A stretch of 35,888 bases of DNA from Microbacteriaceae bacterium (GTDB lineage: Bacteria; Actinomycetota; Actinomycetes; Actinomycetales; Microbacteriaceae), in NCBI GenBank assembly GCA_947447385.1, contig CANFKN010000001.1, positions 1 through 35,888 on the forward strand. The letters are read 5' to 3'. The stretch's first letter is position 1, and each line of letters opens with the position of its first letter. The notes beneath the pieces were generated by a model. It made no database searches. It was given only the letters and a program-made list of their open reading frames with translations, and was not told the DNA's origin. The position numbers and the translations under genes were made by a program. Below, in pieces: positions 7,252 through 27,631 of the stretch.

Positions 7252-8592
7252 CTAAATCTTAAGCAGGCTTTCGAACATCGACTCATTAACGTCGCCAACG
7301 GCAACGATTGAACGTTCACGACCAAGCAACCAACCCGCAAGGTTCTGAACCTGTTCGATGGTCACCTGCTCAAAGTGGTGAAGCGTTGCGTGCAAGTCAA
7401 GAAACTCGCCAGTGGTTAATTCTGAGCCGGTTAGTCGGTTCATGCGGGCCTGTGAGCTCTCGAACTTGAGGGCAAGGCCACCCGAGATATTGCCCTTTGC
7501 AAGGGTCAACTCGGCCTCGGTAATACCGTCTTGTGCAATCTTTTCTAGCTCGGCAACCATCAAAAGGCTAACCTCGGTGGTTTTGGCTGGTGAACAGCCG
7601 GCATAGAGGCCGAAATAGGCTGCGTCAGAATAACCCTGGTTGAACGAGAAAACGCTATAGGCAAGGCCGCGCTTTTCACGAATCTCTTGAAACAGACGTG
7701 AGCTCATGCCACCGCCTAGCACGGTGTTCAAAATGGCCATCGCAAAACGACGGTTGTCATCGGCAATCAAGCCCTGCATGCCAATCAAAACGTTCGCCTG
7801 AGCGATAGGTCGGTTCACAATCTTGAGCGCGGTGCCGCGAGCAATCTTTGCTTCGCCGATCTCGCGGCGAGGCACAGGCTTGCTTTTAGTGCCAAGGTCC
7901 ATGCCCGCCTTGCTGAGTGAATCTTCGACCAACTTGATAAGGGCATCGTGGTCGACTCCCCCGGCAGCTGTAACCACGATGTCTTGTGGTCGATAGTTCT
8001 GTCGATAATATTCCCAAACCGCATCACGGGTTACCGCGTTGATGGTTTCGTGGGTGCCGCCGATTGGGCGACCAAGTTCGTGCTCGCCCAAAACGGCTTC
8101 AGCGAACGCTTCAAATGCGACATCTTGTGGATCATCGTCATTCATCGCGAGCTCTTCGAGAATCACAGTGCGTTCGTTTTCGAACTCAGTCTGATCAATG
8201 AGTGAGTCGGCAAGCATGTCAGCGATCACATCAACGGCGAGAGGCAATGCTGTGCTTTGAACGCGTGCGTAATAGCTGGTGTGCTCTTTGCCGGTCGAGG
8301 CGTTCGATGAGCCACCTACTGAGTCAAAGGCAATCGCAATGTCGAGCGCGGTGCGAGCCTTGGTGCCCTTGAAGAGCAGGTGCTCTAAAAAGTGTGTGCT
8401 GCCAAAGTGGTTGTTGGTTTCATCACGTGAACCAACCGCCACCGAAAACGAGACACTCGCGCTGGCAGCAGCCGGCATGGTCTCGGTTAAAACGCGAACA
8501 CCGCTGTCGAGAATAGTGCGGCGAACCACACTACCCTCGCTAGCGGTGAACGAGAGCTCACGCTGGTCTAGGTCAAAAATAATTTCTGTCAT
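7252..8592 (-). CDS. M16-family zinc peptidase (PepR/pitrilysin-like)
   Basis: VGSRDE, inverted zinc motif HFLEH and GGGMSSRLFQEIREKRGLAYSV. Start moved to the ATG at 8592 because the ORF-track start overlaps pnp. Confidence 0.93.
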   Translation of the reverse strand: MTEIIFDLDQRELSFTASEGSVVRRTILDSGVRVLTETMPAAASASVSFSVAVGSRDETNNHFGSTHFLEHLLFKGTKARTALDIAIAFDSVGGSSNASTGKEHTSYYARVQSTALPLAVDVIADMLADSLIDQTEFENERTVILEELAMNDDDPQDVAFEAFAEAVLGEHELGRPIGGTHETINAVTRDAVWEYYRQNYRPQDIVVTAAGGVDHDALIKLVEDSLSKAGMDLGTKSKPVPRREIGEAKIARGTALKIVNRPIAQANVLIGMQGLIADDNRRFAMAILNTVLGGGMSSRLFQEIREKRGLAYSVFSFNQGYSDAAYFGLYAGCSPAKTTEVSLLMVAELEKIAQDGITEAELTLAKGNISGGLALKFESSQARMNRLTGSELTTGEFLDLHATLHHFEQVTIEQVQNLAGWLLGRERSIVAVGDVNESMFESLLKI

Positions 8593-20515: not shown

Positions 20516-23305
20516 TTAGACGCGCGGCTTTTCGCGCATCTCGTAGGTCTCGATGATGTCTTCGAGCTCGAGGTCGTTGAAACCACCAAGGCCGATACCA
20601 CACTCGTAGTCTGTCTTGACTTCGGTGGCGTCGTCTTTGAAGCGCTTGAGCGAGTCAATCTTGACGTTCTCGACGATGACCTTGCCGTCACGAATAACAC
20701 GGGCTGAGCTGTTGCGACGGATGCTGCCAGTGCGCACGATTGAACCGGCAATGGTGCCGACCTTCGACGACTTGAACAGCTCGCGAACCTCTGCGGTGCC
20801 GAGTTTGTACTCTTCGTATTCTGGCTTGAGCATGCCCTTAAGCGCTGCTTCGATGTCGTCAAGTGCAGCATAGATGACTGAGTAGTGGCGAATGTCGACA
20901 CCCTCGCGGTCAGCACGCTCTTTGGCCTTGTTGTCTGGGCGCACGTTGAAGCCAATGATGATTGCGTTGTCAACGGTAGCGAGGTTAACGTCGCTCTCGG
21001 TGATCGCACCAACACCACGGTGAATGATGCGCAACTGAACGCTGTCGTCAACTTCGATCTTGAGCAATGAGTCTTCGAGAGCTTCAACAGCACCAGAAAC
21101 GTCACCCTTGATGACCAAGTTGAGAGACTCAACCTTGCCATCTTCAAGAGCTTTAGTGAAGTCTTCAAGGCTGATGCGCTTGCGAGTCTTAGCCAACAGA
21201 GCGTTGCGGTCAGCAGCTTCGCGTTTCTCAGCGATCTGGCGAGCCTGGCGCTCATCGTCAGTGACCACAAATGTGTCACCAGCGCGAGGCACCGACTGCA
21301 GACCAAGAACCTGAACGGCGCGGCTTGGAGTTGCCTCAGCAACTGTCTTGCCGTTCTCGTCAAACATGGCACGCACGCGACCGTGAGCTGCACCGGCAAC
21401 GATTGAGTCACCGACACGCAAGGTGCCCGACTGAATCAGTACGGTAGCAACTGAACCGCGACCCTTGTCAAGGTTGGCTTCGATGGCAACACCACGAGCG
21501 TCTTTATTTGGGTTGGCACGCATGTCAAGAGCTGCGTCTGCTGTTAGCAGAACTGCGTCTAGGAGTTCAGGAATGCCAGCACCGGTTAGAGCAGAAACGT
21601 TGACGAACATTACGTCACCGCCATACTCTTCAGCAAGCAAGTTGAACTCGGTCAACTGCTGGCGAATCTTGTCTGGGTTTGCACCCTGCTTATCAACCTT
21701 GTTGACGGCAACAACGATTGGCACGCCAGCCGACTGAGCGTGGTTCAACGCTTCAATCGTCTGAGGCATTACACCGTCATCGGCAGCTACAACCAAGATT
21801 GCGATGTCAGTGACCTGAGCACCACGAGCACGCATAGCGGTGAACGCCTCGTGACCTGGGGTGTCAATGAAGGTGATTGCGCGGTCGATGCCTTCGTGCA
21901 TGGTGTGCACCTGGTAGGCACCAATGTGCTGGGTAATGCCACCGGCCTCGCCAGCCTGAACGTTCGAGTTGCGAATCGAGTCAAGCAAACGGGTCTTTCC
22001 GTGGTCAACGTGACCCATGACGGTGACAACCGGAGGGCGAGCCTCAAGGTCTTCTTCTTCGTCGTCATAGTCGGTTGAAACGTCAAGGCCAAAGCCTTCG
22101 AACAGCTCGCGCTCTTCGTCTTCAGGCGAAACAACTTCAATCTTGTAACCAAGTTCTTGGCCAAGAATCTGCATGGTCTCTTCGTCGAGCGAAGCGGTTG
22201 CAGTGGTCATCTGGCCAAGGTGGAACAACACGGTGATCAGCTGACCTGCATTGCCATCAATCTTGTCGGCGAAGTCTTGAACGCTTGAACCGCGGCGCAA
22301 GCGAATGCTTGTGCTGCCATCGCCACGTGGCACAACAGCGCCACCTAGGCTAGGCGCACTTCTCTGCTCAAACTCTTCGCGTTTCGCGCGCTTTGACTTG
22401 CGAGCCTTGCTCTGGCCGCGACCGCCACCCTTGCCAAATGCACCTGCAGTGCCACTGCCTGTGCCGCGACCGCCACGACCCGCTGGGCCGCCGCCGCCAC
22501 CTGCTGGGCGAGTGAAACCTGCGCCGCCACCAGCACCTGGTGCGCCACCTGGGCGGCTAAAGCCAGCGCCACCTCCGGCACCACCTGGGCGACTGAAACC
22601 TGCGCCAGGAGCTCCCGCTGGGCGTGGACCACCAGGGCGACCTGCGCCGCCAGGGCCACCAGCACCTGCTGGGCGTGGACCGCCAGGGCGACCTGCGCCG
22701 CCAGGGCCACCAGCACCAGCTGGGCGAGGGCCGCGGCCCATGCCCTGGTTGCTTGAGAACGGGTTATTGCCCGGGCGTGAAACTGGGCGAGGAATGCCCA
22801 TGCCCTGACTTGAAGCAAATGGGTTGTTGCCGGGGCGTGGGATGCCCGGAACTGCGCCAGGAGTAGCAGCTGGTGCTGCGCCTGGTGTTGCTGCCGCGGG
22901 TGCTGCGGCTGCAGCAGCCGGTGTTGCTGGTGCAGCAGCGGCTTCTGGTGTTGCGGGTGCAGCAGGCTCGGCTGAGTTTGTAGGCTTTGCGCCTGGTTTA
23001 GCTGAAGGCTTTGATGCGCTCGCTGGCGCAGGTGCGGCAGCTGATGCTGGTGCAGCCGGTGCCATAGCGGCAGGCGCAGCTGGTGCAGCAGCCTCAGCAG
23101 CAGGTGCCGCCTTCGGTGCTGGCGCAGCCTTTGGCTCGACCGGTTTTGCGTTCGGAAAAGCCTCGCGTAGCTTCTTGGCTACCGGTGGTGTGATGGTTGA
23201 TGAACCAGCCTTGACGTATTCGCCAAGTTCTTTTAGTTTGGCCAACGCCTCTTTGGTGTCAATACCAAGTTCGTTAGCAATGTCGTAAACGCGTGGAAGC
23301 GCCAA
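20516..23305 (-). CDS. infB: Translation initiation factor IF-2
   Basis: [24 protein letters not shown] and NKVD motifs; Pro/Gly/Ala-rich N-terminal linker; TTG start with SD AGGAGA at 23311-23316. Confidence 0.99.
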
Positions 23306-23310
23306 GTTAT

Positions 23311-23385
23311 TCTCCTGATCTAGGGGCCTACCCTAGGTCAGGGCAGGCCATTAAAGCTGTTGGGTTCTCATTTCGAGATACTCAT
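23311..23385 (-). promoter_or_regulatory. infB leader: three coupled mini-ORFs plus two alternative hairpins
   Basis: Mini-ORFs MSISK* (23385-23368), MRTQQL* (23371-23351) and MACPDLG* (23351-23328). Hairpins 23325-23349 and 23314-23342 are mutually exclusive. Confidence 0.65.
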
Positions 23386-23651
23386 TTTGTTGCCAACATC
23401 GTTTCTGCCTGTTCTATTGGTTGGGTTAGAGCTGAGACATCAAAAGGGCCGTCGGTGCGCAGTGCGCGACCAAAAGCTCGGCGTTCGATGGCTACATTCA
23501 AACACTTTTTGTTTGCATGAAGCCATGCTCCCCGGCCAGACAAACCACCCCGCTCGTCAATCACAAGTTTTTGTGCTGACATTGCAACGCGCAATAAGTC
23601 TGATCGTGATGCACGTTGGCGACAGCCAACGCAGGTTCTAATCGGTTCCAT
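23382..23651 (-). CDS. ylxR: YlxR/DUF448-family RNA-binding protein
   Basis: PIRTCVGCR, DLLRV, GRGAWLH and RAFGRALR motifs; located between nusA and infB. Confidence 0.92.
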   Translation of the reverse strand: MEPIRTCVGCRQRASRSDLLRVAMSAQKLVIDERGGLSGRGAWLHANKKCLNVAIERRAFGRALRTDGPFDVSALTQPIEQAETMLATK

Positions 23652-23681
23652 TCTAACCCCGTTTAGCGATTTGGGCTAGAA

Positions 23682-24659
23682 CTAGTCGTCTTCGAGAATG
23701 CTGTCGGGTTGAACGTCGATTTTTGCACCGGTTAGTTTTGCTGCAAGTCGAACGTTTTGACCCTCTTTGCCGATTGCCAATGACAGTTGAAAGTCTGGCA
23801 CCAACGCGCGCACCTGGCGGTTTGCAGCGTCAATCATGTAGCAAGAAGAAACCTTGGCCGGCGAAAGCGCCTGTGCAACGAACTCTGGCAAGTTTTCGCT
23901 GAAGTCAACGATGTCAATTTTTTCTTCGTTCAACTCAGCCTGAACGGCGCGCACACGCTGACCGAGCTCGCCAATGCAAGAACCCTTGGCGTTAACGCCT
24001 TCTTGACTAGTGCGAACTGCGATTTTGGTGCGGTGGCCAGCTTCACGAGCCACTGAAACTATCTCAACGACACCACTTGCGATTTCAGGAACCTCAAGTG
24101 CAAAAAGCTTTCGCACCAACGACGGGTGGCTGCGTGAAACGGTGATCTGTGGGCCTCGGGTGCCCTTGACCACGTTGGTCACAAAGAAACGCATGCGCTT
24201 GTTGTGGCTGTAATCTTCGCCAGGAACCTGCTCTTCAGGAGGCAAAATCGCCTCAACGGTGCCGAGGTTCACATAAATCAAGAAAGGCTTCGGGCCCTGC
24301 TGAATTACGCCGGTGACAATTTGGTCTTTTTTGTCGATGTATTCGCCCAAAAGACTGTCGTCGTTGATTGCACGCAAACGCTGAGCGATTACCTGTTTAG
24401 CCGAATAGGCCGCAATGCGACCAAAGTTCTCTGGTGTGGCAAGCTTTTCGCCGGTCTCTTCGCCGTCTTCATCGAGCTCGGGAACATAGATGTTCACGTG
24501 ACCGGTGGTGCGGTTTAGCTCGGCGCGAGCTTTATCGTGGTTGCCAACGTGGCGGTGATAAGCGGCGAGAATCGCCTCTTCAATGATCTGCACTTGCTCG
24601 CCAAACGGAATGTTGTATTCACGCTCGACGCCCTTCAGCACGGCCAATTCGATGTCCAT
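23682..24659 (-). CDS. nusA: Transcription termination/antitermination factor NusA
   Basis: FGRIAA, VSRSHP, AREAGHRTKIAV and SLAIGKEGQNVRLAAKLTG motifs; SD GGAGG. Confidence 0.97.
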   Translation of the reverse strand: MDIELAVLKGVEREYNIPFGEQVQIIEEAILAAYHRHVGNHDKARAELNRTTGHVNIYVPELDEDGEETGEKLATPENFGRIAAYSAKQVIAQRLRAINDDSLLGEYIDKKDQIVTGVIQQGPKPFLIYVNLGTVEAILPPEEQVPGEDYSHNKRMRFFVTNVVKGTRGPQITVSRSHPSLVRKLFALEVPEIASGVVEIVSVAREAGHRTKIAVRTSQEGVNAKGSCIGELGQRVRAVQAELNEEKIDIVDFSENLPEFVAQALSPAKVSSCYMIDAANRQVRALVPDFQLSLAIGKEGQNVRLAAKLTGAKIDVQPDSILEDD

Positions 24660-24677
24660 TGGTGCCTCCCAGGCTAT

Positions 24678-26459
24678 TTAAAGTTCTTGTAGTGCTGATT
24701 CTACCTTGACTGGGCGACGCTCGCCTGTGGCGCGGTTCCAAATGTCAACCTCACCATTGGCTAGGCCTTTGCCGACAATGACAATCTTTGGCACACCGAT
24801 GAGTTCAGCATCGCCAAACTTCACACCGGGGCTGACCTTGGCACGGTCATCAAGAATCACTGATTTGCCAGCAGCTTCGAACTCTGCGGCAAGCTTTTCG
24901 GCTGCCTCATAAACCTCGTCGTCTTTGCCAGCAGCAACGATATAGACATCGGCTGGTGAAACTGCAGCCGGCCAGATTAGGCCCTTGTCATCGTGGTTGG
25001 CTTCGGCAAGAACAGCGAGAATGCGCGTAACGCCAATGCCATAGCTGCCCATGGTGACGGTTACGAGCTTGCCGTTTTCGTCTAGAACTTTGAGTTCAAG
25101 CGCTTCGGCATATTTGCGACCAAGTTTGAAAACGTGACCGATTTCGATGCCGCGAGCCAGTTCAAGTGGGCCTGAGCCGTCGGGTGCTTCATCGCCTGCT
25201 TTGACTTCGGCGAGGTCAACGAAACCGTCGGCAACAAAGTCGCGGCCGGCAACAACGCTAAACAGGTGGGTGTCGGCTTCGTTTGCGCCGGTGATCCAAT
25301 TCGAACCTTCGACAACGCGAGGGTCGACGAGGTAGCGAATGCCGCTGGTTGACTTGGTGCCAAGAACCGCACTGGTCGAGCCGTCGGCGGCGAGCGCAAC
25401 TGGGCCGATATAGCCCTTGACTAGCTCTGGGTGCTTAGCGAAGTCGGCGTCGCCCGCTGGCTCAACTTCGTTTGGCGAGAAAGCTGCTTCGGCACGCTTT
25501 GGTTCGACCTCGCGGTCACCTGGCACGGCAACCACAACGAGTTCGCGCTTGCCGGTTGGGCTGGTTAGCGCCAAAACCACGTGCTTTAGGGTGTCGCTGG
25601 CTTGCCACTCGCGACCATCTGCGCGCTTTAGGTCTGGGTTGGCGTTAGCCAAGGCAACCAAAGGCTTAATGCCTGTTGTCTTTGGAGTGCTCACCTTGTG
25701 AGCTGCCGCCTGGCCTTCAATTGCGACGGATGCTGGCGGAACAGTTGCAACAGCCTCAACGTTTGCCGCATAACCGCCCGGCGAGCGCACAAAGGTGTCT
25801 TCGCCGATGGCTGATGGTGAGAGGAACTCTTCGCTGGCTGAACCGCCCATAGCACCTGCATCGGCGCGCACAATTACATATTCAACGCCGAGACGGGTGA
25901 AGATGCGCTCGTAGGCATCACGCTGGGCTTGATAGGCCTTGTCGAGACCCTCATCTGTCACGTCGAAGCTGTAGGCGTCTTTCATGACGAACTCGCGGCC
26001 TCGAAGTAGGCCGGCGCGTGGTCGGGCTTCGTCGCGATATTTGTTCTGAATCTGAAAAAGGGCCACAGGTAGGTCTTTGTAGCTCGAATATAGGTCTTTC
26101 ACCAAGAGCGTGAACATCTCTTCGTGGGTTGGAGCTAGCAGATAATCAGCCTTTTTGCGGTCTTGCAGACGAAATAGGTTGTCGCCATATTCTGTCCAGC
26201 GGCCAGTGGCCTCATAGGGTTCGCGTGGCAATAGCGCCGGAAAAAACACTTCTTGCGCGCCAGCATTCGCCATTTCTTCGCGCACGACCTTTTCGATCTT
26301 GGCTTTTACGGCCAAGCCAAGCGGCAACCAGGTGTAGATACCGGGGGCGGCGCGACGAATGTAGCCAGCGCGAAGCAATAGCTTGTGGCTGGCGACCTCA
26401 GCCTCAGCTGGGTCTTCTCGAAGCGTGCGCAGAAACAGGTTTGATAGGCGAATTGGCAT
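24678..26459 (-). CDS. proS: Proline--tRNA ligase (with INS editing domain)
   Basis: [33 protein letters not shown] and MGSYGIG motifs; TAAACT 7 nt before the ATG. Confidence 0.98.
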
Positions 26460-26479
26460 GCCTACAAGTTTAGGCGAGG

Positions 26480-27631
26480 CTATTTGATGATTTCGACCGT
26501 TGGTGAACCAAGCGCGGCTGGCATTTCGGCCGCCATGCGATTTGCTTCTTCAATCAGGGTCGCAACGATTTCGCTCTCAGGCACTGTCTTAATGACTTCA
26601 CCCTTCACAAAAATCTGGCCTTTGCCGTTGCCCGATGCAACACCGAGATCGGCTTCGCGAGCTTCACCAGGGCCGTTAACCACACAACCCATCACGGCAA
26701 CGCGCAGTGGCACGGTTAGCTTCTCAAGACCAGCGGTCACGTCGTTGGCAAGCTTATAAACGTCAACCTGAGCGCGACCACAGCTTGGGCAACTGACGAT
26801 TTCAAGCTTGCGAGGGCGAAGGTTGAGGCTTTCGAGAATCTGTGAGCCAACTTTGATTTCTTGAGCTGGTGGAGCCGAAAGCGAAACACGAATGGTGTCG
26901 CCGATGCCCTGCGAAAGCAAAGCGCCGAAGGCAACCGAAGACTTGATGGTGCCCTGAAACTCTGGGCCAGCCTCGGTGACACCGAGGTGAAGTGGCCAGT
27001 CGCCGCGCTCGGCAAGCAGCTGATAGGCGCGAACCATGATCACAGGGTCGTTGTGCTTGACCGAGATTTTGAAATCGTGAAAGTCGTGCTCTTCGAACAG
27101 GCTGGCCTCCCACACTGCTGACTCAACTAGAGCCTCAGGGGTTGCCTTGCCATATTTTTGCAAGAGGCGCGGGTCAAGCGAACCGGCGTTCACGCCAATG
27201 CGAATCGAAACACCAGCGTCTTTGGCTGCCTTGGCGATTGCGCCAACCTGGTCATCGAACTGGCGAATGTTGCCAGGGTTCACGCGAACCGCGCCACAAC
27301 CGGCGTCGATGGCCTGAAAAACATACTTTGGCTGAAAGTGAATGTCAGCGATAACCGGAATCTGCGACTTGCGCGCAATGATGTGCAAAACATCTGCGTC
27401 ATCTTGGCTTGGGCAAGCAACGCGAACAATGTCGCAACCGCTGGCGGTGAGCTCGGCAATCTGCTGCAGTGTTCCGTTGATGTCTGTGGTTGGTGTGGTG
27501 GTCATTGATTGCACGCTGATTGGCGCATCGCCACCAACGGCAACCTTGCCCACCATGATTTTGCGTGAGACACGACGCGGAGCGATAACAGCAGGCTTTG
27601 AGCCAGGCATACCGAGGTTAATTGCAGCCAA
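26480..27631 (-). CDS. ispG: (E)-4-hydroxy-3-methylbut-2-enyl-diphosphate synthase
   Basis: [26 protein letters not shown] and the Fe-S ligands CPSCGR...[10 protein letters not shown]. The TTG at 27631 is preferred because the SD AAGGT lies 6 nt upstream; the GTG at 27637 abuts the SD. Confidence 0.97.

What the first reader, a model, noticed from the sequence alone, without database searches (positions are those of the whole stretch)
23305..23399. Chain of stop/start-coupled mini-ORFs feeding an RNA switch over the infB ribosome-binding site (candidate IF2 autoregulator)
Seen: on the minus strand the ylxR stop overlaps an ATG (AAATGA) opening MSISK* (23385-23368). Its stop overlaps another ATG (AAATGA) opening MRTQQL* (23371-23351), whose TAA overlaps a third ATG (TAATG) opening MACPDLG* (23351-23328). 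The last five ylxR codons (MLATK*, from 23399) look like a further unit of the same kind. Right after the MRTQQL stop, two overlapping hairpins are possible. Hairpin A is GGCCUGCCCU/AGGGUAGGCC (10 bp, 23325-23349) and leaves the SD free. Hairpin B is CCUGACCUAGGG/CCCUAGAUCAGG (11 of 12 pairs, 23314-23342) and pairs the AGG of the SD AGGAGA. infB starts with a weak TTG. Established: ATGA/TAATG overlaps mediate termination-reinitiation, and IF2 delivers initiator tRNA. Inference: serial reinitiation would measure IF2/fMet-tRNA supply. A ribosome at the MRTQQL stop would mask the 5' arm of A and favour B (repression), while translation of MACPDLG would melt both, so the sign of regulation is not settled. 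I know of no named element for this but could not check the literature.
Basis: partly seen in the sequence, partly recalled or inferred. Interest (0 to 1): 0.88.

Follow-up and report, generated by a model that had tools for sequence, protein, structure and literature searches.

The report
Micro-ORF relay gating IF2 translation
Ahead of the gene for translation initiation factor IF2, this bacterium and most Actinomycetes sampled carry three tiny stop/start-overlapping reading frames ending at a predicted RNA switch, which likely lets ribosomes that restart easily (IF2 plentiful) shut off further IF2 synthesis.

Summary
The conserved unit is three chained micro-ORFs (here MLATK*, MSISK*, MRTQQL*) whose last stop sits 1-5 nt before hairpin A. 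The fourth ORF (MACPDLG*) is incidental (11 of 54 family genomes). Chains of three or more precede infB in 126 of 131 Actinomycetes leaders (8 expected by shuffling), 0 of 23 from other classes, and 1 of 758 long ORFs in this genome. Frames and overlaps are kept while peptides vary, and the chain stays with infB where ylxR is missing. Both hairpins show covariation in this order. Masking 7 nt after the last stop closes the SD in 48/53, 21/22 and 28/29 genomes of three groups (13-16% in shuffles), but only 6/42 elsewhere. The predicted sign is therefore repression. Best reading (inferred, untested): negative IF2 autoregulation by serial reinitiation. There is no Rfam family, and ten literature searches found no description; one key supplement was unreadable. 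Translation of the micro-ORFs is not directly shown. This scan found the element twice before in other genomes.

The parts
23382..23651 (-). ylxR (PF04296). Its last five codons double as micro-ORF1; context, not required for the element
   Evidence: chain kept before infB in 5 of 5 genomes without a ylxR match (two ORFs only in the three f5 genomes)
23407..23415 (-). SD-like motif AGAACAGGC before micro-ORF1, likely its own loading site
   Evidence: anti-SD duplex median -8.1 vs -4.55 kcal/mol 40 nt further upstream, 114 chains (anti-SD sequence recalled)
23382..23399 (-). micro-ORF1 MLATK* (ATG...TGA), ATGA overlap to ORF2
23368..23385 (-). micro-ORF2 MSISK*, ATGA overlap to ORF3
   Evidence: 5 codons in 101 of 114 chains
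23351..23371 (-). micro-ORF3 MRTQQL*; its stop is placed at the foot of hairpin A
   Evidence: A starts 1-5 nt after this stop in 54 of 54 family genomes
23328..23351 (-). fourth ORF MACPDLG*: present here but not conserved; judged incidental
   Evidence: ATG in 11 of 54 family genomes; absent in the Aquiluna loci and in L128-L131
23325..23349 (-). hairpin A (anti-sequestrator, SD open, predicted ON state)
   Evidence: arm-swap test: self -14.7 vs cross -10.9, 0 of 5000 permutations
23314..23342 (-). hairpin B (pairs AGG of the infB SD, predicted OFF state)
   Evidence: (6 of 10 pairs with two-sided changes; covariation score reached by 0 of 500 shuffles)
23311..23316 (-). infB Shine-Dalgarno AGGAGA
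   Evidence: AGGAG invariant in 70 of 70 aligned
20516..23305 (-). infB (IF2, 929 aa), TTG start; the regulated gene
   Evidence: start is GTG in 127 and TTG in 3 of 130 Actinomycetes leaders, never ATG

Best explanation
Three overlapping micro-ORFs end at the foot of a two-state hairpin over the infB ribosome-binding site, and they likely form a negative-feedback gauge in which a ribosome that restarts twice reaches the last stop, is predicted to open hairpin A, and lets hairpin B close the IF2 SD. Steps. (1) Shown in sequence: chain, stop placement, both stems, covariation. (2) Inferred: a ribosome loads on ORF1 from its own weak SD, from ylxR, or from a 5' end at the AUG. (3) Established in E. 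coli, inferred here: each stop/start overlap needs IF2 and fMet-tRNA to restart, so arrival at the ORF3 stop scales roughly as restart probability squared. (4) Predicted: A folds first during transcription and keeps the SD open; a ribosome at the ORF3 stop unpairs A's 5' arm and B forms. High IF2 therefore gives OFF and low IF2 gives ON. (5) Untested: the response to IF2 level in vivo.
For: Chains of 3 or more occur in 126 of 131 Actinomycetes leaders vs 8 expected, and in 0 of 23 from other classes. Later sets: 14 of 15 new genomes with an infB start in the stretch and 29 of 29 in family f56 (four of these genomes were seen before). Signature of translation rather than of a fixed motif: successive ATGA words are spaced 2 mod 3 in 125 of 127 cases; link types switch among ATGA, GTGA, TAATG and TGATG; the last stop is TAA 61, TAG 29, TGA 24; ORF3 gives 101 distinct peptides in 114 chains. 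ORF3 lengthens to 21-25 codons in the f8 genomes with its stop still at the foot of A. The four close relatives whose ORF1 is shifted by one base all have a stop 8 nt over the ORF2 start. Switch: A and B are within 3 kcal/mol in 42 of 54 family genomes, and A is complete a median 9 nt before B. Masking 7 nt raises the cost of opening the SD by 2 kcal/mol or more in 48/53 (family), 21/22 (rest of order) and 28/29 (f56), vs 13-16% of shuffles, and lowers it by 1 kcal/mol or more in only 1 of 146. Family f56 uses a different B, built from A's 3' arm and well outside a ribosome footprint, with the same logic. Yoo and RajBhandary 2008 (PMC2268962; abstract and section 10 read): IF2 overproduction raised reinitiation about 2.5-fold with a mutant initiator tRNA, and reinitiation may need IF2 more than de novo initiation does. 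In M. tuberculosis, ORF1 is listed as a novel ORF at a mapped RUG transcription start (PMC9094748 supplement 1A).
Against: There is no direct evidence here that the micro-ORFs are translated. The M. tuberculosis Ribo-RET tables list no start for ORF2 or ORF3, although they also miss the infB start itself. In 42 other Actinomycetes (class-other) the SD-closing response is near background (6/42 vs 9% of shuffles) and B shows no covariation, so the output step is not universal. In this family B begins only 7-11 nt after the stop; if a ribosome holds 10 nt open, only 26 of 54 keep 2 or more SD bases paired. B is already the equilibrium fold in 44 of 54 family genomes, so the ON state there depends on A being a kinetic trap; the computed barrier (about 20 kcal/mol) ignores loop-mediated strand exchange. 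The IF2 effect in E. coli was seen with a weakened tRNA, and the same paper reports that IF3 lowers reinitiation. Genomes are related, so permutation counts overstate significance.
Confidence: 0.6

Rival explanations
1. Same relay and same repressing switch, but the sensed quantity is general restart capacity (fMet-tRNA supply, IF2:IF3 ratio, (p)ppGpp action on IF2, or mature 30S supply) and not IF2 amount as such.
For: Formylated tRNA and IF3 both affect reinitiation (PMC2268962 abstract). rbfA and truB follow infB in the window (gene names from own knowledge of the sequences). The anatomy cannot tell these inputs apart.
Against: The switch covers the infB SD specifically, and no second strict chain precedes another long ORF in this genome. 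RRF depletion did not affect coupling in four studies (PMC12548453 passages).
Confidence: 0.17
2. Positive translational coupling: the chain delivers ribosomes whose arrival melts the SD-closing hairpin B and turns infB on, as the repY leader does for repZ in IncI plasmids (own knowledge).
For: B is the equilibrium fold in 44 of 54 family genomes and starts 7-11 nt after the stop. Masks of 10 nt or more weaken it. uORF delivery by an AUGA overlap is shown for ppe2 (PMC11260477 passages).
Against: It gives no reason for conserved, covarying hairpin A. In f56 and in much of the order, B lies outside ribosome reach and masking closes the SD. The last stop lies 33-70 nt from the infB start and a fourth overlapping start is not conserved.
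Confidence: 0.08
3. The relay acts on transcription or RNA stability (Rho access, a NusA pause at hairpin A, or RNase cleavage), with SD pairing a later add-on.
For: Hairpin A is class-wide while B is not. Overlapping uORFs are linked to reduced Rho termination in M. tuberculosis (bioRxiv 2022.06.01.494293 passages). A non-TSS 5' end lies at 2707680 in M. smegmatis, 8 nt past the ylxR stop (PMC6448022 supplement).
Against: No intrinsic terminator in the leader. Two different B architectures both pair the SD.
Confidence: 0.08
4. The AUGAG repeats are a protein-binding RNA motif or a three-frame stop trap that insulates infB from ylxR, and are not translated.
For: ORF2 is near-constant at DNA level within the family (MSGSK in 39 of 114). 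The three stops do cover all frames.
Against: A stop trap needs no start codons or mod-3 spacing (125 of 127). ATG/GTG and stop types interchange. The chain is kept without ylxR, and ylxR ends 25 nt or more upstream in 35 of 114. S. coelicolor ylxR has few footprints relative to infB (10.9 vs 2693, PMC4895711 supplement; not length-normalised).
Confidence: 0.05

Closest known systems
Leader-ORF translational attenuators (ermC and cat-86, own knowledge; mycobacterial poly-Cys leaderless attenuators, seen only as a passage in PMC9031893)
   Same: A ribosome on a short upstream ORF decides between two RNA folds, one of which hides the downstream SD.
   Different: Those sense stalling on specific codons or a nascent peptide. 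Here peptides are not conserved and there are three frames in series joined by stop/start overlaps, so the likely sensed step is restarting.
Translational coupling by termination-reinitiation at NUGA/URRUG overlaps (Huber 2019, PMC6728339, search listing only; uPPE2-ppe2, PMC11260477 passages)
   Same: The same overlap words join the frames.
   Different: The last frame does not overlap infB. It stops 33-70 nt short, at a hairpin foot, and the predicted effect is repression, not delivery.
GCN4/ATF4 uORF control and eIF1/eIF5 autoregulation in eukaryotes (own knowledge)
   Same: Serial uORFs of unimportant sequence gauge initiator-tRNA delivery through reinitiation.
   Different: Bacterial, with overlap-coupled frames and SD-hairpin output; unrelated in origin. 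An analogy only.
rimP-leader attenuator and NusA feedback on the nusA-infB operon (PMC2965389 passages; PMC6511841 passages)
   Same: Regulates the same operon.
   Different: A transcription terminator before rimP, controlled through NusA. This element lies directly before infB and has no U-tail terminator.

Membership tests
Stall-type leader-peptide translational attenuators (ermC/cat-86/poly-Cys) | Short ORF positioned so its ribosome masks one arm of alternative folds over the downstream SD | tested here: met
   (computational; met in the order and f56, weak in 42 other class members)
Stall-type leader-peptide translational attenuators (ermC/cat-86/poly-Cys) | Conserved arrest peptide or run of regulatory codons | tested here: not met
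   101 distinct ORF3 peptides, 44 for ORF1 and 42 for ORF2 in 114 chains
Stall-type leader-peptide translational attenuators (ermC/cat-86/poly-Cys) | Ligand-dependent ribosome stalling shown | not testable with these tools
   needs toeprinting or Ribo-seq
TeRe-coupled uORF delivering ribosomes to a gene | NUGA or URRUG overlaps between frames | tested here: met
   both links in 114 chains are ATGA, GTGA, TAATG or TGATG
TeRe-coupled uORF delivering ribosomes to a gene | Last uORF stop overlaps or abuts the main gene's start | tested here: not met
   33-66 nt between the last stop and the infB start
rimP-leader / intrinsic-terminator attenuators | GC stem followed by a U-run | tested here: not met
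   no terminator-like site in the leader
Any Rfam 15 family | Covariance-model hit at gathering score | tested here: not met
   window 22500-26500, only sub-threshold hits, none over the leader; 16 relatives' loci, 0 hits
Initiation-factor autoregulation (IF3 non-canonical start type) | Expression responds inversely to the factor's own level | not testable with these tools
   needs IF2 titration with reporters

The most novel reading that the evidence does not exclude
A class-wide, unnamed IF2 autoregulator that counts successful ribosome restarts across three micro-ORFs and converts the count into closure of the infB SD: a bacterial counterpart of GCN4-type reinitiation sensing, kept from Microbacteriaceae to mycobacteria, with the output hairpin built in at least two ways.
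Probability: 0.55. Interest if true: 0.92.

Novelty: new variant of a known kind. Interest (0 to 1): 0.8.

Why it matters
IF3 and RF2 have textbook autoregulation (own knowledge), but the papers searched gave no IF2-specific feedback, only operon-level NusA control in E. coli. This element would supply one for a whole class that includes Streptomyces, Corynebacterium and mycobacteria. It would also show reinitiation used as a sensor and not just for coupling. As a 100-nt cassette it is a ready reporter for what reinitiation needs in vivo (IF2, IF3, 30S vs 70S), which a 2025 review treats as unsettled (PMC12548453 passages).

Tried and rejected
Rfam: nothing relevant. Ensemble SD accessibility with flanks included did not show a clean ON-to-OFF switch in the family, because B already dominates at equilibrium and long masks cut into B; the tail-only analyses replaced it, and both are reported. 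RNAalifold on the MAFFT alignment recovered only 6 pairs of B, and A's arms were misaligned, so A was tested by arm swapping instead. A leaderless start at ORF1 as a general rule is rejected: no TANNNT 5-8 nt before ORF1 in 114 of 114 chains; the S. coelicolor TSS for infB is listed 19 nt inside the annotated start, with no coordinate offset between tables; M. smegmatis TSSs lie inside the ylxR 3' end. A simultaneous A+B pseudoknot was considered and judged unlikely because only 1-3 nt link the helices (own knowledge of pseudoknot geometry). Sequencing runs: all 22 held under 0.2 of the words; four were laid and are contigs from relatives, so they say nothing on expression or ends. The 16S 3' end was not found in this 67%-complete genome. 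Rows dropped: L041, L094, L095, L098, L104, L107 (no infB start found); L051, L155, L123-L127 (duplicates); L040, L076 and three hairpin-less loci (L072, L082, L086) from the fold tests; 4 of 20 and 1 of 30 later loci had no infB start in the stretch.

Full report
Observation. The minus strand reads nusA, ylxR, a 76-nt gap, then infB. The leader folds to hairpin A; without A's 5' arm it folds to B, which pairs the AGG of the SD. With ATG starts and up to 8 codons, infB is the only one of 758 long ORFs in this genome with a chain of three or more; with looser rules (any start, up to 40 codons) 35 of 758 qualify. The organism is a small-genome member of a family whose near loci are Micrococcales MAGs (81-88% YlxR identity) and Aquiluna (42-55%); Microbacteriaceae is my inference. 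The other family names used here (f56 mycobacteria and kin, f42 Streptomyces, f5 bifidobacteria, f47 Nanopelagicales) are also inferred, not given by a tool.

Distribution. I examined 154 infB leaders: the best-scoring 30 loci of each of four searches plus stretches I chose, not all genomes searched. A chain of three or more ends within 70 nt of infB in 126 of 131 Actinomycetes, against 8.0 expected from dinucleotide shuffles, and in 0 of 23 from other classes. Under the strict rule the counts are 107 of 131 and 0 of 23. Later samples gave 15 of 16 loci with an infB start (one a repeat genome) and 29 of 29 in f56. Five genomes with no ylxR match keep a chain before infB, of four ORFs in f47 and two in f5, so the element belongs to infB. 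The ylxR stop falls anywhere from far upstream to inside the chain.

Selection is on translation. Successive ATGA words are 11, 14 or 17 nt apart, 2 mod 3 in 125 of 127 cases. Links switch among ATGA, GTGA, TAATG and TGATG, the last stop among all three codons, and ORF3 encodes 101 different peptides in 114 chains. ORF3 grows to over 20 codons in one family with its stop still at the foot of A. Four close relatives with a one-base shift in ORF1 all have a stop 8 nt over the ORF2 start, a stop absent in the window and most unshifted neighbours. An SD-like motif precedes ORF1 (using a recalled anti-SD). The fourth ORF is not conserved: 11 of 54 family genomes have its ATG, with no fixed frame.

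The switch. Hairpin A starts 1-5 nt after the last stop in 54 of 54 family genomes, and within 6 nt in 27 of 27 and 43 of 46 more distant ones. B covaries on a sequence-only alignment: 87% of cells paired, 6 of 10 pairs with two-sided changes, score reached by 0 of 500 shuffles and above all slid controls. Position-defined arm swaps favour own partners for A in family, order and class, and for B in family and order, but not for B elsewhere in the class; a control pair showed no effect. A and B lie within 3 kcal/mol in 42 of 54 family genomes. A is complete a median 9 nt before B, with a computed barrier near 20 kcal/mol. Relatedness inflates all these counts.

Sign. Holding 7 nt after the stop open raises the cost of exposing the SD by 2 kcal/mol or more in 48 of 53 family, 21 of 22 other-order and 28 of 29 f56 tails, against 13-16% of shuffles. 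It lowers the cost in 1 of 146. In f56 the anti-SD is A's own 3' arm, far from the ribosome, a second architecture with the same logic. Against this: 42 other class members show little closing (6 of 42); in this family a 10-nt mask leaves only 26 of 54 with two SD bases paired; and B is the equilibrium fold in 44 of 54, so ON depends on folding order. In the window itself A is the more stable hairpin (-20.2 vs -17.6).

Outside evidence. Smith 2022 (PMC9094748; passages and supplement searches) lists ORF1 of M. tuberculosis as a novel ORF at an RUG transcription start, overlapping the ylxR stop. It lists no Ribo-RET start for ORF2 or ORF3, nor for infB, and its main text never names infB. Martini 2019 (PMC6448022; supplement searches) gives M. 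smegmatis TSSs inside the ylxR 3' end, upstream of the expected chain. Jeong 2016 (PMC4895711; supplement parts) gives no TSS at ORF1 in S. coelicolor. Yoo and RajBhandary 2008 (abstract and section 10) show that IF2 promotes reinitiation in E. coli and IF3 lowers it. None tests this element.

Mechanism. Most likely a ribosome enters ORF1, must restart twice, and on reaching the ORF3 stop opens A so that B hides the infB SD. Because restarting needs IF2 and fMet-tRNA, plentiful IF2 would shut infB off and scarce IF2 would leave it on. The anatomy is shown, the fold change is predicted, and IF2 sensing is inferred (0.6). Rivals: another initiation input (0.17), positive coupling (0.08), transcription or stability control (0.08), untranslated motif (0.05).

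Novelty. There is no Rfam family. Ten full-text searches returned no description; most results were seen as listings only. The motif-discovery papers listed have no main-text 'infB'. One supplement held as text had no hit and another could not be read, and subscription journals are largely outside the library, so a prior listing is not excluded. It works like a leader-ORF translational attenuator but fails that family's arrest-peptide test, and it fails the delivery-uORF test. I file it as a new variant of a known kind with a sensor not found in the papers searched. This scan reported the same element in two other genomes; those notes are not independent support.

Noticed in passing
window 23650-23655 (-): A TAGAAT -10-like box overlaps the ylxR ATG. 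Similar boxes overlap the ylxR start in 11 of the 12 family loci printed, and S. coelicolor and M. smegmatis have TSSs 2 nt inside the annotated ylxR start. This suggests an internal promoter whose transcript may lack the ylxR start in this family.
   Followed up: partly
L072, L082, L086: One family (f36) keeps the three-ORF chain but has no hairpin; the last stop lies only about 20 nt before infB, so direct occlusion or coupling may replace the switch.
   Followed up: no
L037, L052, L053, L198 (family f8); L063, L070, L076 (family f24): A chain ORF is lengthened, often by an internal hairpin, while frame and stop position are kept.
   Followed up: partly
PMC4895711 TSS-2870: The S. coelicolor infB TSS (6216485) is exactly 100 nt downstream of where ORF1 would start if the leader is about 81 nt as in L065. 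Probably coincidence; other coordinates in the tables show no offset.
   Followed up: partly
L041 (G127:C12): The infB SD runs directly into the Gly-rich middle of IF2 and the N-terminal domain is missing; likely an assembly deletion.
   Followed up: no
window 23415-23688, run X6: One metatranscriptome contig joins the nusA end to the chain leader, skipping ylxR (26 letters on the short side), hinting at a relative that lost ylxR but kept the leader. Weak.
   Followed up: no
infB start codons: infB never starts with ATG in 130 Actinomycetes leaders (GTG 127, TTG 3), while the micro-ORFs almost always do; in other classes 11 of 23 use ATG.
   Followed up: partly
G000:C18 + strand near 7759: The only other strict three-ORF ATG chain in this genome; no long ORF start was found after it by my rule. 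Probably chance.
   Followed up: no
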